Shown: positions 45,326 to 57,286 of the stretch, one piece after another
Numbering within the stretch: position 1 is the stretch's first letter
How the letters are laid out: each line of letters begins with the position of its first letter
From: a virus
Taxonomy: Duplodnaviria; Heunggongvirae; Uroviricota; Caudoviricetes
Direction: 5' to 3' (one strand)
DNA: 64,000 nucleotides
Virus record (IMG/VR): IMGVR_UViG_3300009165_000005
Made by a program: the position numbers and the translations under genes
The notes under the pieces: generated by a model
Told to the model about the DNA's origin: nothing
Databases searched by the model: none
Seen by the model: only the letters and a program-made list of their open reading frames with translations

Positions 45326-45961
45326 CTAAGTACACTCATCTCCGCCACGATGGATCCATTGTGGAAGCTGCACGGATCTCATGATGTTAAAATTTTTGTT
45401 AGCAATGGAAGAGAACACCTTGAACAACGGTTCGAAATTCCCATCCTCTGAAGCCTTGCGCTCAAGTAGCTTTACGGCCCCAAAAAAACGGTGCCTCACC
45501 CGTCCTTGGGTGAGACCTAACTGTGTTGCCACTTCACTTTGGCAAGTTGTCTTCCACATACCAATCAAGATCTCCACGTCTATGGGCTTCAGTGGTACGT
45601 AGGGTAGGATATTTCTCATTTCATCCTCAGTGACTTGAGGGATCGAGAGTAGGAACTTGATTCTCTGAAGGCCCCTGTCCAACCGATAGCTGATAGCTGC
45701 TTGAGTTACATCGAAGATCTCGGCTATGTCAGCCTGACGCTTCTTTCGTATGTAATACAGCTCAATCAGGTCAGCTTCTCTATCTGGGATTCTATCGAGA
45801 AGGGGCCGCACCTGAGTTTCGAAATGCAGAGAAGACAGGATCGATTCGATCTTCTCCTTCTCCTCTTCCTCCAGAGGTTCGTCGAATAGGGGCTCTGGCG
45901 ACGCAAACCGGTTTGCCATTTCTGAAGGGTCAACCGAAATTACATAGCCAGTACTACTCAT
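45326..45961 (-). CDS. Tandem sigma-70 region-4-like HTH protein (211 aa)
   Basis: HTH1 READLIELYY..RQADIAEIFDVTQAAISYRLDRG; HTH2 DVEILIGMW..QSEVATQLGLTQGRVRHRF. No region-2 motif visible. Confidence 0.75.
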   Translation of the reverse strand: MSSTGYVISVDPSEMANRFASPEPLFDEPLEEEEKEKIESILSSLHFETQVRPLLDRIPDREADLIELYYIRKKRQADIAEIFDVTQAAISYRLDRGLQRIKFLLSIPQVTEDEMRNILPYVPLKPIDVEILIGMWKTTCQSEVATQLGLTQGRVRHRFFGAVKLLERKASEDGNFEPLFKVFSSIANKNFNIMRSVQLPQWIHRGGDECT

Positions 45962-45967
45962 ATTACC

Positions 45968-47821
45968 TCAACTGGTTTTGGAAAACCCAGCACCCGAAGG
46001 TAACTGGAAGAAAGTGGAGATCAGAGTCTCAGGTTGAATGGCGCATTGCTTAAGAGCTTCAAAAGCGCCATCGAAGTCAGGTGCAGACTCACGTAGTTCG
46101 TATTCAAGGTCCGACCTAAGTGCCATTAACTCGACATTAAGCCTAGCTTGCTTCTCGAAGTCTTTGATCTTCTCGTACTGCGTCTTGGTTAACCCAGCTA
46201 GATTTGAAGCGTATATGCCGTTGATCGAGCCTTGGGTAGTAAGAAGGGAGGCCAAGATCTTTCTAGGAACTCTTGGAACTCCAGGTAGATTGTCTGAGGT
46301 GTCACCCGAGAGGGCTCTGAGGTGTACCATCAGCCGCGGTGGGACTCCATACTCTGCCACAACCTTGTCCGGGTCGTAAAGGGTCTCAGGTCGACTTCCT
46401 TGCTTGGGGACCAAAAGTAAGTCGGTATAGGTAACTAACTGTAAGAAATCCCTGTCAGTGGATATTATGACATTGTGCTTCCCACTGAGCTTGTTTCTCA
46501 CCAAACAAGCGATGATATCATCAGTTTCCTCCTCAGGATTGTGTACTTGATGGATCCCAAACATCGGAAGCATCGCCTGAAGTCGAGACATCTCAGCATA
46601 GGTCTCCTGACTATGCTCAGGTCTACCAGCCTTGTACTCTGGGTACATCTTGGCTCTACGTTGTTTTGAGCCATCCCATACCACGTACAAGCTTGCTCTT
46701 GAAAAACGCTTCTTGAAGGCGGCTAGGCTACGTAGAAACCCAAATACCAGTGCAGTGGAGTGCCCCTCACTGTCCGTTAGCTGTTCCGAGAAATTCCTGA
46801 ATGCACTGATAACCCTGTAGGCTAGGTTGTGTCCGTCGAAGATGATGTTGTTAGCCATATCTGGGTTCCAATCTGGTACAGATCTCTCGAGAAGGTCACA
46901 ATCCCTGTGGATGATGGAGAAACGTGAGATGAAGACGTCAAGATCCTCGAGCTCGGAGGCCTTTCTCGTCAAAGCATCGATATCTGGGAGTTGAACCAAA
47001 GGTAAGTAGAATAGAAAGCCAGATCTCTCCAAGAAGGCATTCATCTGCTGAACTCGTAGATACTTCCGTATTAGGGGTTCCCCATCTGAGCCACAAAAGG
47101 CCATAGGTGAGGAAAGATCCACTAACAACTTCTTCCCTTCTCGAAAGGCCCTCAACCACCCCTGAATCTTCGAATATCGTTGAATCAAAGTATCTAACAA
47201 ACGTCGACCTGGAACCAAAGCCATCATGGGCGCCCGAGCCAGATCCACCAACCTCCTAATCCGAGTCAACTTGGTGAGAAAAGGTGAATTGTACTGTTGG
47301 TCCTCAGTTTCTTTCGAGACAAACTTCAGGAAACTACGGGGTAGCGTGAGCAGCGCTTGTTTGGACCTGAGTTTGATGAATACTTGAACTGAGTTATTCT
47401 CGGGAATGTTCTCAATGACCTTGCCATTGATCCCACTGTAGGCCCCACTCATCACAAGAACCTCATCCCCAACCTCAATCCCTTGTTCGGTCTCCACGTG
47501 AAGTTGACGACGCATCTGTTCGATGGACCTATCGAAGACTGGGGATATCTTACGCACCCTATGCTCGACAACGGTTAGAACCGACGCCACGTACTTCGAA
47601 CCCTCAAGCTTGAAGTACACTTGATCTTGTTGAGTCCTTCTGACGAATATGTAGTTCTCAACGAGCTTGTAGACGGATCTCGAGTGCCCACGCGTGATGA
47701 TAGACGCGGGCACAAATACGTCTTTGAGGCTCTTAACGGCTTTTCCAACCGCCTTGCGCAGTACTTCTGGATCCTCATCCTCACCTTGAGGACTCAATTC
47801 TAGGACAACCCACTCAGCCAT
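45968..47821 (-). CDS. NusG-like (NGN+KOW) - helical linker - 5'-3' exonuclease/flap endonuclease fusion (617 aa)
   Basis: N-terminus WVVL..VFVP..ENYIFVR..KYVASVL and KOW IEVGDEVLVMSGAYSGINGKV. C-terminus IIFDGHNL, VVWDG..R...YPEYKAGR, ETDDII, IISTDRDFLQL, ALSGDTSDNLPGVP. No stop between domains; ATG at 47821. Confidence 0.85.
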   Translation of the reverse strand: MAEWVVLELSPQGEDEDPEVLRKAVGKAVKSLKDVFVPASIITRGHSRSVYKLVENYIFVRRTQQDQVYFKLEGSKYVASVLTVVEHRVRKISPVFDRSIEQMRRQLHVETEQGIEVGDEVLVMSGAYSGINGKVIENIPENNSVQVFIKLRSKQALLTLPRSFLKFVSKETEDQQYNSPFLTKLTRIRRLVDLARAPMMALVPGRRLLDTLIQRYSKIQGWLRAFREGKKLLVDLSSPMAFCGSDGEPLIRKYLRVQQMNAFLERSGFLFYLPLVQLPDIDALTRKASELEDLDVFISRFSIIHRDCDLLERSVPDWNPDMANNIIFDGHNLAYRVISAFRNFSEQLTDSEGHSTALVFGFLRSLAAFKKRFSRASLYVVWDGSKQRRAKMYPEYKAGRPEHSQETYAEMSRLQAMLPMFGIHQVHNPEEETDDIIACLVRNKLSGKHNVIISTDRDFLQLVTYTDLLLVPKQGSRPETLYDPDKVVAEYGVPPRLMVHLRALSGDTSDNLPGVPRVPRKILASLLTTQGSINGIYASNLAGLTKTQYEKIKDFEKQARLNVELMALRSDLEYELRESAPDFDGAFEALKQCAIQPETLISTFFQLPSGAGFSKTS

Positions 47822-49328
47822 TTCCCACTCTATTCCAGATCTCCAAGAATCCACGACGCCACTGAGCATGCGTGATCAAATCTCTATCACTAGAGGTGTT
47901 AGCTTCGAATGTAAACTGAGAGGGATTTCTCCTCTTCCCAGGGTTTCCCTTTGGGATCACTTGAGTGTCATAAATAGTCCGAGCTTCTGGATCACTGGAC
48001 CCTAGATTACCAATTTCTGGCTCACTGGGTTCCGGATCTGGGGGAGCCTCAGGTTGACGAGGAGCCTCAGGTTGACGAGGGGCTTCAGGTTGACGAGGGG
48101 CTTCAGGTTGACGAGGGGCTTCAGGTTGACGAGAGACTTCAGGTTGACGAGAGACTTCAGGTTGACGAGAGACTTCAGGTTGACGAGGAGCCTCAACCGA
48201 AGGAACAGAGGGCGCTACGGGCTTCTGAACCACCGCAACTTGTGTGAGAATCGGAACAGGAGCCGTAGGGACTGAATAATTGAGAGATCCGATGGACCCT
48301 GAATAGGCCAGAGTTGTCACGTCGCAAATCAGACTGACCTGAGTTACGAACCTAGACCTAAGAAAGTGGCTGGAGACCTTGATCAGTTCAAACCCATACA
48401 ACTTGTAGACCTCGGCAGCTTGAGTGGTGTCCGTAAAGGCGAAGTCAGCTCCAAGGCCATTAGCCAACCGAAAGGCGTTCATTGCGGCCTCGGACAACCC
48501 TGAAGCTACCTCTTCAGCAGTCACTCTCTCACAGGCCTGGTCAACTAACTGAAGAGCCTTTTTGACGTCCTGCTTGATGTTGATGAGAATCTGGTAGTAA
48601 GTCGAAACTACAGACAGGTTCAGGTACTCACGGACATTATCAAGAGTGATTGGCCCAACTTGGGCTATCATCTCGAGCCGACTCACAACATCACGAACAT
48701 GACCCCCAGCATAGTCGATGACTGTCAGCACACCCTCATCTTCGTATTCTACCTTCTCAGACTCTAAGATGTGCTTCATCCGAACCAGGACATCATCCCG
48801 AGTAACCTTACGAATACCGTACTCCTCACATCGGGATCTAATAGCCCCACGAACCTTCTCAGGTTCGGTGGTACAGAACATCCCGATCATCTTTCGTTCT
48901 TCTAAGGGCTTTAGGAGAACATCTTGGGCATCCTTCGACATTCGGTGGCACTCGTCGAACAGGTAGATGCGCTTAGCTGCCCCTACGACTGCGAACGGAA
49001 GACTGTCCACAATTCTTCGAATCTGTTCGATCCCACCTTGACTGGCGGCATCCTGTTCAGAGAAAGCCACCGAAGAATCATTGAGGATCGAAACACAACT
49101 CTCGCATTGGTTACAGGGTTCAGGGTCACTCCTATCCAAGTTCTCGCACAACATTGCTCGCGCGTAGATACGACTTAAGGTCGTCTTTCCCTGGCCGCTG
49201 CCTCCAGAGAAAATGTAGCTAGTATCTAGCGCAGTCCCGTTCTTGAGCCTAGCTTTGAGAAGTTGGACTGTACCCTTTTGACCCAAGACATCCGCAAACA
49301 CTAATGGACGGTGAGTTGTATCCCACAC
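47814..49328 (-). CDS. dnaX: DNA polymerase III clamp-loader subunit gamma/tau
   Basis: HRP..FADVLGQ, GGSGQGKTT, C..PCNQCESC zinc motif, EQDAAS..G.E.IR, LFDECH, IRSRC. Confidence 0.92.
   Translation of the reverse strand: MWDTTHRPLVFADVLGQKGTVQLLKARLKNGTALDTSYIFSGGSGQGKTTLSRIYARAMLCENLDRSDPEPCNQCESCVSILNDSSVAFSEQDAASQGGIEQIRRIVDSLPFAVVGAAKRIYLFDECHRMSKDAQDVLLKPLEERKMIGMFCTTEPEKVRGAIRSRCEEYGIRKVTRDDVLVRMKHILESEKVEYEDEGVLTVIDYAGGHVRDVVSRLEMIAQVGPITLDNVREYLNLSVVSTYYQILINIKQDVKKALQLVDQACERVTAEEVASGLSEAAMNAFRLANGLGADFAFTDTTQAAEVYKLYGFELIKVSSHFLRSRFVTQVSLICDVTTLAYSGSIGSLNYSVPTAPVPILTQVAVVQKPVAPSVPSVEAPRQPEVSRQPEVSRQPEVSRQPEAPRQPEAPRQPEAPRQPEAPRQPEAPPDPEPSEPEIGNLGSSDPEARTIYDTQVIPKGNPGKRRNPSQFTFEANTSSDRDLITHAQWRRGFLEIWNRVGNG
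48043..48196 (-). repeat. 18-bp tandem repeat (8 full units) in dnaX encoding E[AV][PS]RQP
   Basis: Variants ggagcctcaggttgacga / ggggcttcaggttgacga / gagacttcaggttgacga in contiguous blocks with no spacers. Confidence 0.95.
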
Positions 49329-49339
49329 TGGTTAAGCCT

Positions 49340-49828
49340 TTACTCGCTGGCTGCGGTCTGAACTTCAGAATCCTCTTCCTCAGTCATGAAACTCAGGTCG
49401 AGAGATTGAGCCACCGAAGCAAAGTTCGAAAGATCCTCAGTCCAAGCCCCGTGACGTCGGAGGATCGAACTGAACTCATAAACGTCAGGCTCTCTCGTCT
49501 TCCATTTCATCTCCGCAGTCTGTTCATCCTCCTCACCGGTACAACGCTCGAGGAGATGGTCTACCAACGCGGTACGACGACTGGCATCCAATTCGTTCCA
49601 GGCATCGAGAGGGATCTCAATGAGGAAGTCTGGTTTCCCTGTGATCAGAAACTTCTGCAGGTCACTCATCTTCTTCACAGTACCAAGAACGGTCTTTCCA
49701 CCCTTCTTACTGCACTTCTCTTTAAAAATGTACCTGAACTTGGCCTCAGCTAACTCAGGGTGGTGAGTGCCAATCAGACTGTTAGCTATAGATTCGACAG
49801 ATTGAGCTTCTTCGTAGGTCTGTGCCAT
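49340..49828 (-). CDS. Phage putative-metallopeptidase-family protein with a degenerate Zn motif
   Basis: HHPEL..AKFRYIF..G..VLG..K..DFLIEI..W..L...RTALVDHLLERC..EPDVYEF..ILRRHGAW; the expected HEXXH reads HLLER. Confidence 0.65.
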   Translation of the reverse strand: MAQTYEEAQSVESIANSLIGTHHPELAEAKFRYIFKEKCSKKGGKTVLGTVKKMSDLQKFLITGKPDFLIEIPLDAWNELDASRRTALVDHLLERCTGEEDEQTAEMKWKTREPDVYEFSSILRRHGAWTEDLSNFASVAQSLDLSFMTEEEDSEVQTAASE

Positions 49829-51639: not shown

Positions 51640-52330
51640 GTTTGAAACCTTTAGCTCGCCGAAGAGTCAGGTGATTTCTGCCATCCTCACTCTTGGTATC
51701 CGCGTGATAGGCTACCGGCGCAAAATCAACGTAGGACTGCTTGTGGGTCACCAAGAAGATGTCCAAGCCCATGGTCTTGGCTAGGCTTCTCATGAACAAG
51801 CTCGTGGTTTCCACGTACTCATCTGACACCGCAAACAGAGTCTCATCGAGGAGCAGGAACTTCCTGCGTTTTAGCCTAAGCAGGGTCAGAATACGAAGGA
51901 TCAGACTCGCAATGACTGCAGGGCCTCCACCGTAGGATTCCATTGGATCCCCACGGGTACCACCGTTATTCAAGTCCCCATCGCAGATGAAGAACTCTGC
52001 ACTCACTTTGTTGTACTTCGAGGACAAGTCGGTTTCGAAGCGTAAGTCCTGGTCAAAGAAGATCGTCTGGAAGCCACTAGAGATCACCTCATCGATGGTC
52101 TTCACCTGATCTCGAACCATACGATCCATGAGCATCAAGTAGAGCTCAGAGACCTTAGCCAAGACTATCAAACGTGAAGAGAGAGACTCCAACTCTCTCT
52201 CCTTATCTTTGAGCTCGGAAACCAACTGATTCCGAAGCGCTTGAACCTTGGTTGCCCTAGTCCTAAGCGCTTCGAGCCTTTGCTTTTTTCCTACTTCGCT
52301 TGGGAGGGCATGAACCTTGTCACTCGACAC
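51623..52330 (-). CDS. sbcC: SbcC/Rad50 ABC-ATPase C-terminal half
   Basis: Short coiled coil, then signature SYGGG, Walker B LLLDE, D-loop-like AVSD and H-loop LVTH; no Walker A. Confidence 0.85.
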   Translation of the reverse strand: MSSDKVHALPSEVGKKQRLEALRTRATKVQALRNQLVSELKDKERELESLSSRLIVLAKVSELYLMLMDRMVRDQVKTIDEVISSGFQTIFFDQDLRFETDLSSKYNKVSAEFFICDGDLNNGGTRGDPMESYGGGPAVIASLILRILTLLRLKRRKFLLLDETLFAVSDEYVETTSLFMRSLAKTMGLDIFLVTHKQSYVDFAPVAYHADTKSEDGRNHLTLRRAKGFKHENQI

Positions 52331-53556
52331 AGGATGCCTTCCTCACTGTTGGGGGTTGCCTTGCCAGTTGCCGGATCCAGGTAGAACTCGTCAATGGTTC
52401 TGAATAGGCAGGTAGCCTGCTTCTTCCCTTCCTTTGGCTTTCCAAGATACCCACGGAAGTTGATCTCATAACCCTTCATGCTCTGGACCAACTCAGTGAG
52501 TTGCTTGGCACTCACGGTGGAGGCGAAGGAATCAGCCTTGGATTGGGTTGTGCCCTCTTCAGCCTCAGTCACCGGAGATGCTTCAACTTTGATCGACTTA
52601 GCCCGGGACTCCGGAACATCGAACCAAATCTTGTTGGTCTTCGAGTCAAAGTTGAGGATAATGCTATCCTTCTCCTTGTCTCGGAAAGCACCCTTTGCAC
52701 ACTCCAGGGCGTGCAACAGACGACCCTTATTGATTCGAGCAACGAGAGAGTCCGTCTTGAGAGCATGGTAGTTGAACTTGTCGTGCAGCTCCCCATGACG
52801 TGTCCACCCAAACACATCACCCTTCTCATTGATAGCGAAGGTCTTGTTATCTCCAAGCTTGATGACAACCTTATCCCCACACTTGGCCAAGAAACTCATG
52901 AAGGCCGAAATATAGTTTCCATGAATGGCAAGCTTCTTCCCAACGAAGTGATCGCTCCTGAAGAAAAAGGCCATGAACTTGTTGGTGGCATAGACATAAC
53001 CGTCCCCCTTCTCGAACTTAGCCTTGTCGAGGATCTCAACTCCATGGAAGGCCTCGGGCACCGCCTGATCTGACTTGTCAGCCATGAAAGCTCGAGCGAG
53101 GTTGATGGCCTCTCGTAGTACCCCTGGGCTGAACTCGTAACTCTCCGTGGCTGATTCCAAGTCTTCATCGTACCTGGAGATGCTATCCGGAGAGAAAGAC
53201 CCGAACTCGGCTTCTGCACCATCCGGCGAGGTCACGTATTTTACTGTATGTCGGCCATCCTCATCAGAGTTAGCTTCGATCACACAGGTTTCCTCTTCCT
53301 TGGCCAGAGGGCGAAGAGAGTTGCTGAGGTTCTTGGCGGGAAATACGAACGACCCATCCCCACTAGACTCGATCAGATCGAACTTCGCCCTGGAGATGCA
53401 AGTCTCGTCACTCGAGTAGAGAAAGCATTCAGTACCTCGGACAACGAACAGGTATCCAGCTCCTTCGTTGGCCATAGTTGAATGTGGGGTGACCGTTGAG
53501 ACCACGTCAAGGGCCTCGATGATGTCTGCCAGATTGAAATTGATTCGGATGTTCAT
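52291..53556 (-). CDS. dnaN: DNA polymerase III beta sliding clamp-like protein
   Basis: Three repeated clamp-like domains (ALDVVSTV..LYSSD; VLREAINLA..FHGV..VYATN; INKGRLLHAL); 421 aa; dnaX nearby. Confidence 0.6.
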   Translation of the reverse strand: MNIRINFNLADIIEALDVVSTVTPHSTMANEGAGYLFVVRGTECFLYSSDETCISRAKFDLIESSGDGSFVFPAKNLSNSLRPLAKEEETCVIEANSDEDGRHTVKYVTSPDGAEAEFGSFSPDSISRYDEDLESATESYEFSPGVLREAINLARAFMADKSDQAVPEAFHGVEILDKAKFEKGDGYVYATNKFMAFFFRSDHFVGKKLAIHGNYISAFMSFLAKCGDKVVIKLGDNKTFAINEKGDVFGWTRHGELHDKFNYHALKTDSLVARINKGRLLHALECAKGAFRDKEKDSIILNFDSKTNKIWFDVPESRAKSIKVEASPVTEAEEGTTQSKADSFASTVSAKQLTELVQSMKGYEINFRGYLGKPKEGKKQATCLFRTIDEFYLDPATGKATPNSEEGILCRVTRFMPSQAK

Positions 53557-54859: not shown

Positions 54860-55830
54860 CCTACTTCCGCCATTTCTAGGTACCTAAGAGCCTCTTTGCG
54901 GACTTCATCAGCGAAGTCTAGAGATTGAATGTTGACCTCGATGGTCTGGTCTGGATCAACCTCACCCTCAGACACTAAACGCTGGACAAATTGGTCGATA
55001 TCCTGACGCTCACGTTCCTGAACTGCCTTCTTTTCCAAGTCGAAGACATCGGAAGCCGGAGCTACATCCAGCTCGAACAACTTTACCCCCAAGTCACTAC
55101 CCTCGAACTCAATGAGCGCCACCTTCGGAGTACGTTCCAAGTTCTCTCGCACCAAGGCGCCGCGGGACATAGCGCCTTGATTTACGAAGTACTTACCCCC
55201 AACAACCTCGACACCTTGATCCTTGTGCCAATGCCCAAACATGAATACATCGGGACCATTACGACTAACAAGAGACTCATAGGCGAAGACCGGCTCGTTC
55301 CAGAAGTCCTCAACCGAACTTGGAGCTTTCAAAGAAGCCAGAGCATGAACTACGGCTATCAAATACGTGTCCCCCTTGCGCTTCTGAATCCCCATCAGGT
55401 CCGTGAGCGTCAAGTTTGGGTTGTAAGGTACGCCAACTACACGTACCCGAAGGCCCCCATCCTCAAAGACTTTTTCATTGAGTTGCTCAAACACACCACT
55501 TGCGTAAAGAGTCCCAAGAGGCTGTCTCTCGAGAGTATCCATGTTGTTGTATCGAACATCATGATTCCCCGTTGTGACAAGAGTCGGACAAGGATACGCC
55601 CGATGGATCGAGGCGGTCCTTTGCACCAGGTAGTGAGAGTTCTTGGTGGGGGCTTTCACATGAAAGTAGTCCCCTCCATCCAAGACCGCATTTACCTCAT
55701 ACTTTTTGGCTAGCGATCCGACTTGGTCCAAGTTGGACCAAAGCTCTTCAGTGTAGTCAGCCTTCCACGAAATCGGGCTATTGTCAGAGAGGTGTGTATC
55801 GGTTCTGAATAGGAAGGCTAATCTAGGCAT
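54856..55830 (-). CDS. sbcD: SbcD/Mre11 metallophosphoesterase nuclease
   Basis: DTH, GGDYF, GNHD, VH and GHWH motifs. Confidence 0.9.
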   Translation of the reverse strand: MPRLAFLFRTDTHLSDNSPISWKADYTEELWSNLDQVGSLAKKYEVNAVLDGGDYFHVKAPTKNSHYLVQRTASIHRAYPCPTLVTTGNHDVRYNNMDTLERQPLGTLYASGVFEQLNEKVFEDGGLRVRVVGVPYNPNLTLTDLMGIQKRKGDTYLIAVVHALASLKAPSSVEDFWNEPVFAYESLVSRNGPDVFMFGHWHKDQGVEVVGGKYFVNQGAMSRGALVRENLERTPKVALIEFEGSDLGVKLFELDVAPASDVFDLEKKAVQERERQDIDQFVQRLVSEGEVDPDQTIEVNIQSLDFADEVRKEALRYLEMAEVG

Positions 55831-57286
55831 GAGTGTGGTCCAAGGTCAAAGGGCGAACACACGTTGGACATACACCTAGGACCTGGATCTCACTTTCAAG
55901 GGCTCTTTCCTCCGCCTCAACTTGAACTAACTCACTCTCCATAGCATCAATGGCCTTCTGAAGACTCTGTGCTCGAGTCGCGAATCGGGACAAGGTACTC
56001 AACTTTCCTTGCAACCCCTGCAAGGTATCGGCATCTGGGATAGCTACCTTAGCCACCTTGTCTAGAACATCAAACTTTGACTTGATCCCCCGCAACTTCG
56101 AGATCCAAAAATCAAACAATCCAAGCTTCTTAGAGGATTGACTCAAAGTGAGGGTGTCCGGAACCTCCACTTTTTCGACCCACTCTAGAGCTTCCACCTC
56201 GGACTTACGACGAGAGTACTCAGTAGCGAATCTGGACAGTTGGATAACCCTGGAACTTGAGTCTGAGATCGACGTAACATCGGGAACCTTCAACTTGTCG
56301 ACCCACTCCAAACCAGAACACCCAATGTACCTGCGTTGGTACTCTTCCACGAACCAAGCGAGTCTTTCAACCTTGGAGTTCGAACCGGGGATCATTGTGA
56401 CGTCCGGTACCTCTACGTCCTCAACCCACTCCAAGCTAGACACAGCAGAGGATCTACGCGAGTAACCATCAACGAGCTTGGATAGGGCTTCCACTTTAGG
56501 TACTAGCTGATTAATGCCTGCGGTCTCTGGTACCTTGACAGCGGTGACACTAGCCAACCCGCGAATCTTCAATCCAAGGGTAGTGATCTTGGAAATATAC
56601 CCTTTGATGTTGTCCAGACGGCCCCCTACAACTTCAATGGCCTCGAATCGACTCTCAACAGAGGACACCCTCTCGAGAGCTTCATCCAGCCCATCGTAGT
56701 TGCAGAGTCTGATCCTGAGCTTATCCACATCCCCTTCTCGAACCTTCTTAGTGGACTGAGCCTCTCGGCGATCCTTCTCAACCAACTTGGTAGCCTTGTT
56801 GATCCGGGTTAGCTTGGAGACATCAGAGATAGTCTCAGCGGCTACTCCTCCAGACTGATCCAAGAGAAAGATCGGATAGAACTGATCTGAAATTTGGATA
56901 CAACCAGACTCATCTCCTACTTTGACAGGAGCCACTCCGTTCAGCTTCAGGAACTCTGGGATCCCTTTCCCAGGATGGTCGTACTCATCTCCATTGAAGA
57001 CATAGCGATTCACTGAATCACCCTTCTCCCAGAGTAGATCAAAACTCTCAGTGACTATGTGCACTGAAGAAAAGCACTTGCACGTCTTCACCCCTCGAAG
57101 GGTACGAGCGCAGTCCGGACCGTGCCTGACAAAGCTCATCCCCTCAGCATTGGTGAGAGCATACTTCAGAGCTCTCACCAATGCACTTTTTCCAATATTG
57201 CTTCGGCCAACGATGACTGTAAACCCATCGATGACGAACTTGACGTCCTCGGCAGATTGGAAGCCCTTGACCTCAATGTGAATCAT
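55823..57286 (-). CDS. sbcC: SbcC/Rad50 N-terminal half ending in the zinc hook
   Basis: IEVKGFQS, Walker A GRSNIGKS, DQFYPIFLL, long arm, terminal CPTC; no Walker B or signature motif. Confidence 0.85.
   Translation of the reverse strand: MIHIEVKGFQSAEDVKFVIDGFTVIVGRSNIGKSALVRALKYALTNAEGMSFVRHGPDCARTLRGVKTCKCFSSVHIVTESFDLLWEKGDSVNRYVFNGDEYDHPGKGIPEFLKLNGVAPVKVGDESGCIQISDQFYPIFLLDQSGGVAAETISDVSKLTRINKATKLVEKDRREAQSTKKVREGDVDKLRIRLCNYDGLDEALERVSSVESRFEAIEVVGGRLDNIKGYISKITTLGLKIRGLASVTAVKVPETAGINQLVPKVEALSKLVDGYSRRSSAVSSLEWVEDVEVPDVTMIPGSNSKVERLAWFVEEYQRRYIGCSGLEWVDKLKVPDVTSISDSSSRVIQLSRFATEYSRRKSEVEALEWVEKVEVPDTLTLSQSSKKLGLFDFWISKLRGIKSKFDVLDKVAKVAIPDADTLQGLQGKLSTLSRFATRAQSLQKAIDAMESELVQVEAEERALESEIQVLGVCPTCVRPLTLDHTHA
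55934..56548 (-). repeat. Five 41-aa repeats in the SbcC N-half arm
   Basis: ..V.VPD...I....SKV..L..F..EY.RR...L.WV, repeated at 41-aa periodicity. Confidence 0.8.

What the first reader, a model, noticed from the sequence alone, without database searches (positions are those of the whole stretch)
45968..47821. NusG transcription factor fused to an intact 5'-3' exonuclease/flap endonuclease
Seen: one uninterrupted ORF with NGN+KOW (aa 1-170), a ~150-aa helical linker and a PolA/T5-type 5' nuclease retaining its acidic active-site motifs (DGHN, WDG, ETDD, DRD, GD.SDN). There is no strong SD before the internal Met at 46858. Known: NusG/Spt5 rides on elongating RNAP; 5'-3' nucleases remove RNA primers and R-loop RNA, and torpedo-type termination (Rat1/Xrn2; archaeal FttA stimulated by Spt4/5) couples a 5' nuclease to the elongation complex. 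I know of no described NusG-FEN fusion. Inference: an RNAP-tethered nuclease for (a) torpedo-like termination or host mRNA shut-off, (b) R-loop removal at replication-transcription conflicts, or (c) replication-coupled late transcription via nicks or gaps.
Basis: partly seen in the sequence, partly recalled or inferred. Interest (0 to 1): 0.87.

Follow-up and report, generated by a model that had tools for sequence, protein, structure and literature searches.

The report
Huge-phage NusG-like factor fused to FEN
An uncultured huge bacteriophage makes one protein that joins a copy of NusG, the factor that rides on RNA polymerase, to the phage's only DNA-replication flap nuclease. The combination is conserved in a large clade of huge phages, I found no description of it, and it probably links transcription physically to the removal of RNA from DNA.

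Summary
Window 45968-47821 (minus strand) is one 617-aa ORF: NusG-type NGN (1-105), KOW (113-169), a roughly 150-aa four-helix spacer, and a PolA-type 5' nuclease (326-580) with all nine acidic residues kept. The N-terminal family profile hits solved NusG (E 2e-8), and its AF2 model matches NusG/Spt5/RfaH.

The fusion is real and old. More than 115 full-length homologues exist, down to about 36% identity. 60 of 67 IMG/VR loci are fused, on phage genomes of 230-530 kb. Contigs from other samples bridge the junction without indels.

Relatives show a series: clamp loader, NGN-KOW, sigma-r4 protein; then NGN-KOW and FEN as separate overlapping genes; then the fusion; then at least two secondary splits. 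One relative fuses the same NGN-KOW to a sigma factor.

Four complete relatives have no detectable RNA polymerase or RNase H, and the fusion is their only FEN.

Best reading (about 40%): a phage NusG paralogue on host RNA polymerase carries the replicative FEN to clear RNA:DNA hybrids and RNA flaps. RNAP binding and nuclease activity are inferred, not shown. I found no paper describing it. This scan had already noted the same fusion on other genomes.

The parts
45968..47821 (-). Whole NusG-like/linker/FEN ORF (617 aa plus stop)
   Evidence: The start at 47821 overlaps the clamp-loader stop (ATGGCTGA). The stop lies 6 nt before the next gene.
47507..47821 (-). NGN domain (aa 1-105). W4 and Y57/F59 match the NusG hallmark strands.
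   Evidence: Pfam/NCBIfam NusG. Profile against PDB NusG, E 2e-8. Foldseek NusG/Spt5/RfaH at probability 1.0. Y57 and F59 are invariant and W4 is at least 90% conserved.
47315..47485 (-). KOW beta-barrel (aa 113-169), the most conserved part of the protein
   Evidence: Pfam KOW 24.4 bits, above the cut-off. Identity by region is 93/72/60% in near, middle and far homologues, against 84/60/51% for FEN.
46856..47308 (-). Helical spacer (aa 172-322). It has four helices, its sequence diverges fast and its length is kept at 123-188 aa (median 150).
   Evidence: AF2 models. Conservation.
46856..46858 (-). Internal ATG (M322) at the linker/FEN boundary. It has no SD here. It is probably the relic start of the once separate FEN gene.
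   Evidence: There is an ATG in this column in 27 of 54 fused relatives, with an SD-like 4-mer or longer upstream in 15 of those 27, against 20% at other internal ATGs.
46346..46846 (-). FEN N-terminal PIN-like catalytic domain (aa 326-492), with D329, D383, E432, D434, D435, D456, D458 and the YKAGR arch
   Evidence: Pfam PF02739, E 9e-32. Alignment to Taq and M. smegmatis Pol I. Conservation.
46091..46345 (-). FEN H3TH domain (aa 493-577), with D507 and D510
   Evidence: Pfam PF01367, E 3e-15..
46007..46033 (-). C-terminal P-[IL]-L-x-x-F-F motif (aa 597-605). It is PIP-box-like and is a candidate sliding-clamp-binding peptide.
   Evidence: The motif is conserved in nearly all fused and split relatives and is predicted as a short helix. 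Clamp binding is inferred only.
47814..49328 (-). Upstream neighbour: DnaX-type clamp loader, whose stop overlaps the fusion's start
   Evidence: Pfam DNA_pol3_delta2. It holds the same position in all relatives examined.
45326..45961 (-). Downstream neighbour: 211-aa protein with sigma-70 region 4, a second HTH and a hyperconserved C-terminal tail
   Evidence: Pfam Sigma70_r4, E 1e-13. PHROGs sigma factor. A homologue lies directly downstream in 70 of 70 loci.
52291..53556 (-). Phage beta-type sliding clamp, a possible partner of the C-terminal motif
   Evidence: phrog_947 processivity factor. The family profile hits beta clamps 1vpk (5e-7) and 8dt6.

Best explanation
The gene encodes a phage-specific NusG paralogue (NGN plus KOW) that carries the phage's only flap endonuclease/5'-3' exonuclease on a roughly 150-residue helical spacer of preserved length.

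The phage has no detectable RNA polymerase of its own and encodes sigma-type proteins. The NGN domain therefore most likely docks on the clamp helices of the host RNA polymerase while that enzyme transcribes the phage genome, together with the sigma-region-4 protein encoded immediately downstream.

The tether then holds the replicative FEN at the upstream edge of elongating polymerases. Replication and transcription run on the same, almost entirely co-oriented template. There the nuclease can cut 5' RNA flaps and degrade RNA:DNA hybrids: R-loops, and transcripts taken over as primers when a replisome catches up with a polymerase. The same active site also removes Okazaki primers at the fork, probably held there by a C-terminal clamp-binding-like motif.

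Shown here: the domain identities, the intact catalytic residues, conservation of the fusion, its evolutionary history and its gene context. Inferred: RNAP binding, nuclease activity, clamp binding and the substrate.
For: Domains.

Both halves are under purifying selection, and KOW is the most conserved region.

The fusion is conserved in more than 115 proteins and in 60 of 67 IMG/VR loci, on genomes of 230-530 kb.

Gene order shows a graded history. The states are: clamp loader, NGN-KOW, r4 (L093, L095, L096, L100); NGN-KOW and FEN as overlapping separate genes (L094, L098); the fusion; and secondary splits that stay adjacent and are nested among fused forms. The two functions were therefore already kept together before the fusion and stayed together after fission.

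Links to transcription: an r4 protein is directly downstream in 70 of 70 loci. P0196 is sigma r2 plus r4 fused to the same NGN-KOW. No beta', beta or T7-type RNAP was found in four complete relatives. Sigma r2 matches were found in this record and in two of the four relatives.

Links to replication: there is exactly one PF02739 match per complete genome, and that match is the fusion. No RNase H was found. The gene sits in a primase, clamp loader and clamp cassette.

All long ORFs of the 64-kb window lie on one strand, and GC skew is monotonic, so co-directional encounters are expected.
Against: RNAP binding is not shown. Identity to cellular NusG is only 15-21%, and the Pfam NGN score straddles the cut-off (19.2 and 22.9 against 22.2).

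A covalent link is not essential. At least two independent fissions exist, along with linker-less two-gene forms, and some relatives have NGN-KOW with no adjacent FEN.

Half of the fused relatives keep an ATG at the junction, with an SD-like sequence enriched upstream. A free FEN may therefore also be made, although this window lacks the SD.

The linker sequence is poorly conserved. No expression or biochemical data exist. The KOW tip (LRSK) differs from the NusG segment it aligns with (FGR), so its partner is unknown.
Confidence: 0.4

Rival explanations
1. There are two independent functions in one polypeptide. The NusG-like part is an ordinary phage antiterminator or processivity factor for very long co-oriented operons. 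The FEN is an ordinary replicative primer-removal nuclease. Neighbouring, translationally coupled genes merged by loss of a stop codon, and the fusion persists only because it is harmless or fixes their stoichiometry.
For: Linker-less overlapping gene pairs exist (L094, L098). Repeated fission occurs without loss of either gene. The linker is poorly conserved. Some relatives lack an adjacent FEN. The junction ATG, with an SD-like sequence, is retained in many relatives.
Against: The fusion is kept across divergence down to about 30% identity in most lineages. Spacer length is held near 150 aa while its sequence drifts. After fission the halves stay adjacent, with overlapping or abutting stop and start, and the spacer stays with the NusG half. 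Adjacency of NGN-KOW and FEN preceded the fusion.
Confidence: 0.25
2. This is replication-coupled transcription of the T4 type. The NGN binds the beta' clamp helices, which is the site used by T4 gp55 and sigma region 2. The neighbouring r4 protein binds the beta flap, which is the site used by T4 gp33. The C-terminal I-L-x-x-F-F motif binds the phage beta-type sliding clamp. Clamps left on replicated or nicked DNA would thus recruit or activate RNA polymerase for late genes, and the FEN would mark nicks.
For: The conserved core is clamp loader, NGN-KOW and r4, even where FEN is absent. A PIP-like motif sits at the C-terminus. The r4 protein has a hyperconserved C-terminal tail. The cassette lies at the border between the replication genes and the structural genes. 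The T4 mechanism itself is established knowledge and was not tested here.
Against: There is no homology to gp33 or gp55. Clamp binding is not shown. Stand-alone NGN-KOW proteins end right after the KOW, with no such motif, so in those phages the NusG-like protein cannot itself contact the clamp in this way.
Confidence: 0.12
3. The NGN-KOW module has been re-used as a replisome adaptor and no longer binds RNA polymerase. It would tether the FEN to the clamp loader, the primase, or a nucleic acid at the fork.
For: The gene is embedded in, and translationally coupled to, the clamp-loader gene within a replisome cassette. Similarity to cellular NusG is low. The KOW tip differs from the NusG segment it aligns with.
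Against: The NGN hallmark residues, which in NusG line the RNAP-binding pocket, are invariant. The r4 neighbour is constant, and there is a sigma/NGN-KOW fusion. Members of the wider family pass the Pfam NusG cut-off (P0211, 30.1 bits).
Confidence: 0.1
4. It is a torpedo-type terminator or host-transcript killer. The RNAP-borne 5'-3' exonuclease would degrade nascent RNA from its 5' end to dislodge polymerase or to shut off host mRNA.
For: This rests on analogy only, to Rat1/Xrn2 and to archaeal FttA with Spt4/5. The Foldseek list includes the FttA-Spt5 complex 9bct, but only through its Spt5 chain.
Against: PolA-type FENs act on flaps and on the 5' ends of duplex or hybrid substrates, not on free single-stranded RNA (established knowledge). 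This is the only FEN in genomes with no detectable RNase H, so its core duty is replicative. The cassette is a replication cassette.
Confidence: 0.06

Closest known systems
Bacterial NusG and its specialised paralogues (RfaH, LoaP, UpxY)
   Same: It has a two-domain NGN plus KOW layout and fold. The hallmark N-terminal W-hydrophobic strand and the G-Y-V-F-V-type strand are kept (W4, Y57, F59). Like the specialised paralogues, it is encoded beside the genes it presumably serves.
   Different: Identity is only 15-21%. The family was found only in phage or metagenome contigs. None was found by the one sequence pattern used to scan about 185,000 species genomes, which is a test of limited sensitivity. 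It carries a roughly 450-aa C-terminal extension with an enzyme. The KOW tip reads LRSK instead of the FGR segment of NusG. No recruitment element is known.
Pol I 5' nuclease domain and stand-alone bacterial/phage FENs (Taq/E. coli Pol I N-domain, ExoIX/Xni, mycobacterial FenA, T5 D15, T4 RNase H)
   Same: It has a PIN-like domain plus H3TH, all metal-binding carboxylates and the YKAGR helical-arch motif. It is the sole such enzyme of the genome and sits in the replication module.
   Different: It is preceded by NGN, KOW and a spacer rather than being free or followed by a polymerase. It ends in an I-L-x-x-F-F motif reminiscent of the PIP box of eukaryotic and archaeal FEN1.
T4 late-transcription machinery (sliding clamp gp45 with gp55 and gp33 on host RNAP)
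   Same: In both, small RNAP-binding proteins are genetically and functionally tied to the clamp and clamp loader. The two RNAP sites involved would be the same: the clamp helices and the flap.
   Different: There is no sequence or fold relationship. The coupling is inferred from gene order only.
Nucleases that act on elongation complexes in other domains (XPG/Rad2 of the FEN superfamily with Pol II/TFIIH at R-loops; Rat1/Xrn2; archaeal FttA stimulated by Spt4/5)
   Same: The concept is the same: a nuclease is positioned on a transcribing polymerase, in one case through the NusG/Spt5 factor.
   Different: Those associations are non-covalent. Except for XPG, they use unrelated nuclease folds. 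Here the NusG-family factor and the nuclease form one chain.

Membership tests
NusG/Spt5 family | NGN alpha/beta domain | tested here: met
   The family profile hits NusG 2lq8 at E 2e-8. The AF2 model (pLDDT above 90 in NGN) matches NusG, Spt5 and RfaH at probability 1.0. Pfam NusG scores 19.2-22.9 bits against a cut-off of 22.2.
NusG/Spt5 family | KOW beta-barrel following the NGN | tested here: met
   Pfam KOW scores 24.4 bits, above the 22.3 cut-off. The model predicts a five-strand barrel at 120-169.
NusG/Spt5 family | Conserved hydrophobic NGN motifs that form the RNAP clamp-helix pocket | tested here: inconclusive
   W4 is at least 90% conserved and Y57 and F59 are invariant. They align with the NusG G-Y-V-F-V strand. 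Residue-level mapping on an RNAP complex could not be done with these tools.
NusG/Spt5 family | Binds the elongating RNA polymerase | not testable with these tools
   The host is unknown. No pull-down or complex structure is available.
5'-3' exonuclease / FEN (PolA N-domain type) | PIN-like N-domain plus H3TH domain | tested here: met
   PF02739 at E 9e-32 and PF01367 at E 3e-15. NCBIfam PolA N-terminus at 171 bits over positions 4-253. AF2 pLDDT is above 90.
5'-3' exonuclease / FEN (PolA N-domain type) | Full set of metal-binding carboxylates and the basic helical arch | tested here: met
   D329, D383, E432, D434, D435, D456, D458, D507 and D510 align with the Taq residues, and each is at least 90% conserved in 86 sequences. 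R389 and Y396 are invariant, and K397 and R400 are nearly so.
5'-3' exonuclease / FEN (PolA N-domain type) | Flap endonuclease / 5' exonuclease activity | not testable with these tools
   This needs a biochemical assay.
Sliding-clamp client proteins | Terminal clamp-binding peptide that docks in the clamp's hydrophobic pocket | tested here: inconclusive
   A conserved P-[IL]-L-x-x-F-F motif is present at the C-terminus. Binding is not established.

The most novel reading that the evidence does not exclude
The protein is a physical bridge between host RNA polymerase and the phage sliding clamp. Its NGN sits on the beta' clamp helices, and the neighbouring r4 protein sits on the beta flap. Its C-terminal PIP-like motif binds the clamp. 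The huge phage would then run a T4-style, replication-coupled transcription switch, built from a NusG paralogue and a FEN rather than from gp55 and gp33. That would be an independent invention of clamp-activated transcription, in which the nuclease reads nicks and Okazaki junctions as the signal.
Probability: 0.12. Interest if true: 0.9.

Novelty: new variant of a known kind. Interest (0 to 1): 0.72.

Why it matters
NusG/Spt5 is the only transcription factor conserved in all cellular life. As far as I know, it is understood to work by recruiting partners non-covalently through its KOW domain. Here a large, uncultured clade of the biggest known phages has welded an enzyme to it, and that enzyme is the phage's sole replication nuclease.

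If the NGN still binds RNA polymerase, this would be a natural, genetically encoded coupling of transcription elongation to RNA:DNA hybrid or primer processing. That would offer a simple system for studying how replication and transcription share one template.

The graded series is a ready-made set of natural variants for testing what the tether adds. It runs from stand-alone genes, to adjacent genes, to the fusion, to re-split genes, and includes a sigma/NGN-KOW fusion.

The work also defines a phage-restricted NusG-like family that always sits between a clamp loader and a sigma-region-4 protein. I found no mention of it in the NusG reviews or the jumbo-phage surveys that I checked.

Tried and rejected
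1. Complex prediction with the phage beta-type clamp (alignment A2) and the C-terminal 58 residues of the fusion returned no verdict. It is not used as evidence either way.

2. RNA evidence: the look-up of sequencing runs listed no RNA holder, so nothing can be said about expression.

3. BLASTP gave 27% identity over 52 aa at a pairwise E of 9e-4. In a shuffle test 7 of 1000 shuffles reached the score, and the SbcD ORF scored almost as high (47 against 50). I treat this as helical-composition noise, not homology.

4. Cultured relatives. tblastn against 50,697 GenBank phage records found no record holding the fusion. Only the FEN part matched. The NGN-KOW alone matched a single record, the uncultured 485-kb phage LR745208.1, where it is stand-alone.

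5. Cellular genomes. One scan of the species-representative genomes with the N-terminal profile found no relative. It used a single sequence pattern, so sensitivity was limited.

6. Other C- or N-terminal extensions on NGN-KOW relatives carry no recognisable Pfam domain, apart from the sigma fusion.

7. Consensus promoter and terminator scans around the gene gave no more sites than shuffled sequence.

8. Literature. Eight full-text searches and four targeted reads found no NusG-nuclease fusion and no NusG-like gene in jumbo or huge phages. The reads were NusG reviews PMC7819879 and PMC7593976 and jumbo-phage surveys PMC7824862 and PMC13282480. The library lacks most subscription-journal papers.
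Full report
WHAT IS THERE

The finding's coordinates are right. On the minus strand, 45968-47821 is one open frame of 617 codons plus a stop. An upstream ATG at 47869 would add 16 residues, but most homologues begin at the position of the 47821 ATG. That ATG overlaps the stop codon of the preceding clamp-loader gene, reading ATGGCTGA. The next gene starts 6 nt after the fusion's stop. The three genes are therefore packed like an operon.

DOMAINS

- Pfam, NCBIfam and PHROGs all see a strong PolA-type 5'-3' exonuclease/FEN at 326-580: PF02739 at E 9e-32, PF01367 at E 3e-15, and NCBIfam PolA N-terminus at 171 bits.
- They also see a weaker NusG signal at 1-170. KOW scores 24.4 bits, above its cut-off. 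NGN scores 19.2-22.9 bits around its cut-off of 22.2. TIGR00922 nusG gives E 2e-7. phrog_6386 is annotated 'transcription antiterminator'.
- I tested the weak half separately. A profile of 68 N-terminal regions hits solved NusG structures, with 2lq8 at E 2e-8 and 2xhc at E 1e-6.
- An AF2 model of residues 1-325 has pLDDT 82, and above 90 in NGN and KOW. All of its top Foldseek matches in the PDB are NusG, Spt5 or RfaH, at probability 1.00.
- The two most characteristic NusG strands are kept. W4 is at least 90% conserved, and Y57 and F59 are invariant. They align with the G-Y-V-F-V strand of Thermotoga NusG.
- The FEN half aligns with Taq and mycobacterial Pol I. D329, D383, E432, D434, D435, D456, D458, D507 and D510 fall on Taq D18, D67, E117, D119, D120, D142, D144, D188 and D191. 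Each is at least 90% conserved in 86 homologues, as is the basic arch (R389, Y396, K397, R400).
- Between the halves lie four helices at 180-313.
- The full-length model has pLDDT 86.

IS THE FUSION REAL AND CONSERVED?

Yes.

- A word-indexed search found more than 115 full-length proteins with 98-100% coverage, down to about 36% identity, on contigs of up to 512 kb.
- JGI's automatic names already read "5'-3' exonuclease/transcription antitermination factor NusG".
- Of 67 IMG/VR loci recovered with the N-terminal profile, 60 are fused, 4 carry the two parts as adjacent genes and 3 carry NGN-KOW only.
- Contigs from two other freshwater-sediment samples bridge the linker/FEN junction with no differences and no indels. 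These samples may come from the same sampling campaign as the source.
- Identity to this protein, by region, in near, middle and far homologues: KOW 93/72/60%, NGN 84/52/43%, FEN 84/60/51%, linker 59/25/16%.
- Linker length stays at 123-188 aa, with a median of 150.
- Both functional halves are therefore under purifying selection, and the spacer behaves like a ruler of preserved length.

THE GENOME

- The window lies in a 114-kb IMG/VR record that CheckV rates 23% complete, which implies a genome of about 0.5 Mb.
- Relatives with terminal repeats measure 435-513 kb, and a 529-kb record is classed as a provirus.
- In four complete relatives I found no RNAP beta' (PF00623), no beta (PF00562), no T7-type RNAP (PF00940; the control was silent, so this result is weak) and no RNase H (PF00075).
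- Each of those genomes has exactly one PF02739 match, and that match is the fusion.
- Sigma region-2 matches occur in this record and in two of the relatives.
- The phage therefore probably uses host RNA polymerase redirected by its own sigma-type proteins, and the fused FEN has to be its primer-removal nuclease.
- All long ORFs of the 64-kb window lie on the minus strand, and cumulative GC skew falls monotonically.

GENE CONTEXT AND HISTORY

- The cassette runs Toprim primase, phage metallopeptidase, DnaX-type clamp loader, NusG-FEN, sigma-region-4 protein. It is the same in the window and in a relative at 45% identity.
- Upstream of it lie a beta-type clamp, SbcCD, RecA and a RecD2 helicase. 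Downstream lie the structural genes.
- A homologue of the region-4 protein sits directly after the FEN or NGN-KOW gene in 70 of 70 loci.
- An exhaustive search with residues 1-325 against 1.8 billion representatives found 266 clusters. Of the 150 listed, 53 are fused, 52 are stand-alone NGN-KOW proteins of 170-210 aa, 13 are NGN-KOW plus linker without FEN, and 32 have other extensions.
- The contexts show a series:
  1. Clamp loader, NGN-KOW, r4 (L093, L095, L096, and the published uncultured 485-kb phage LR745208.1).
  2. Clamp loader, NGN-KOW, FEN, r4, with the two as separate, overlapping genes and no linker (L094, L098).
  3. The fusion with its linker, which is the majority state.
  4. 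NGN-KOW-linker and FEN as separate genes with a stop and a frame change at the domain border. These were seen in several assemblies (L003/L004, L005-L007, L036, L039, L054).
- In an NGN-KOW tree, the type-4 forms are nested among fused forms in at least two places. The linker-less forms lie outside on long branches. The root is a midpoint root, so the direction of change is suggested, not proven.
- One relative, P0196, is sigma region 2 plus region 4 followed by the same NGN-KOW module. This is a Rosetta-stone link between the module and RNA polymerase.
- No member was found in about 185,000 species-representative cellular genomes. That scan used one pattern and has limited sensitivity.

HOW IT MOST LIKELY WORKS

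Shown here:
- A NusG-family module and an apparently active FEN sit in one chain.
- The module is tied to a sigma-type gene, and in one relative it is fused to a sigma factor.
- The FEN is the only one in the genome.
- NGN-KOW and FEN were neighbours before they fused and stayed neighbours after they split.

Inferred (about 40%): the NGN docks on host RNAP elongation complexes. The spacer holds the FEN near the upstream DNA and the RNA exit channel. There the FEN removes 5' RNA flaps and RNA:DNA hybrids that arise when replisomes and polymerases travel along the same co-oriented template. At forks, the same enzyme processes Okazaki primers.

A conserved C-terminal P-[IL]-L-x-x-F-F motif resembles the PIP box of FEN1 and may bind the phage clamp.

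Rivals:
- A functionally neutral fusion of two neighbouring genes (25%).
- T4-like clamp-coupled late transcription (12%).
- A replisome adaptor that no longer binds RNAP (10%).
- Torpedo termination or host shut-off (6%). This is disfavoured because PolA-type FENs do not degrade free RNA and because this is the phage's sole replicative nuclease.

CAVEATS

- The covalent link is dispensable in some lineages.
- The junction keeps an ATG in 27 of 54 distinct fused relatives. An SD-like sequence lies upstream in 15 of those 27, against 20% at other internal ATGs. The binomial p is 5e-5, but it is not corrected for relatedness.
- This is probably the relic start of the FEN gene, and in some phages it may still yield a free FEN.
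- The KOW tip (LRSK) differs from the NusG segment it aligns with, so its partner is open.

NOVELTY

I found no paper describing a NusG-nuclease fusion or a NusG-like gene in jumbo or huge phages. No cultured phage in GenBank carries it.

The same fusion was already noted by this scan on other genomes. Finding e1-1618812 was followed up with the same verdict. Finding e1-5368220 is a first-reader note. This window is therefore a further member, not the first sighting.

New in this report:
- The stepwise history of the fusion.
- The constant clamp-loader and region-4 neighbours.
- The sigma/NGN-KOW fusion.
- The result that the fused FEN is the sole FEN in genomes with no detectable RNAP or RNase H.
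- The C-terminal motif.
- The junction ATG/SD pattern.

I class the finding as a new variant of known kinds (a NusG paralogue, a FEN) and score its interest at 0.72.

Noticed in passing
window 45326-45961 (-), especially the last ~35 codons (about 45329-45435): The sigma-region-4 protein downstream of the fusion ends in a tail that is almost unchanged in 70 loci, down to about 30% identity of the neighbouring gene: F-N-I-L-R-E-V-K-L-P-Q-W-x-x-R-G-G-D-x-C. It is better conserved than any enzyme motif nearby and looks like a docking peptide for a conserved partner such as RNAP, the clamp or the KOW domain. The protein has region 4 plus a second HTH but no region 2.
   Followed up: partly
L008:3612-5237 (protein P0196): A 541-aa protein on an 18-kb JGI contig joins sigma-70 region 2 and region 4 to a C-terminal NGN-KOW of the same phage family. 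Sigma region 2 and NusG are known to use the same site on RNAP. A covalent sigma-NusG chain would therefore be an initiation-to-elongation hand-over built into one protein.
   Followed up: partly
window 46856-46858 and the homologous column in L030-L092: An ATG is retained at the linker/FEN boundary in half of the fused relatives, and SD-like sequences are enriched upstream (15 of 27, against a 20% background). This suggests optional internal initiation of a free FEN in some lineages. This window has no SD there.
   Followed up: yes
window 47990-48280 (-), inside the clamp-loader gene 47814-49328: The C-terminal part of the DnaX-type clamp loader contains about nine tandem copies of a 7-residue Pro/Gln/Glu-rich unit (SRQPEV / PRQPEA). 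It is a low-complexity spacer reminiscent of the flexible linker of bacterial tau.
   Followed up: no
window 46856-47308 versus 55823-57286 (-): The similarity of the linker to the SbcC N-half arm repeats, proposed in another note, is weak. BLASTP gave 27% over 52 aa at a pairwise E of 9e-4. 7 of 1000 shuffles reached the score, and SbcD scores nearly as high. It is probably helical composition, not homology.
   Followed up: yes
window 1-64000: Every long ORF of the window is on the minus strand, and cumulative GC skew falls steadily across all 64 kb. Replication, recombination, transcription and head genes thus form one co-oriented block.
   Followed up: partly
window 49340-49828 (-) and the same position in L002, L003, L005, L097, L098: A 'putative phage metallopeptidase' gene (PF18894) is a constant member of the replisome cassette, between the Toprim primase and the clamp loader. 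Its role there is unexplained.
   Followed up: no
L100 (LR745208.1:416368-424862): The only GenBank phage record with a relative of the NGN-KOW is an unannotated 485-kb uncultured phage. There the module is stand-alone and is followed directly by the region-4 gene, with no FEN beside it.
   Followed up: partly
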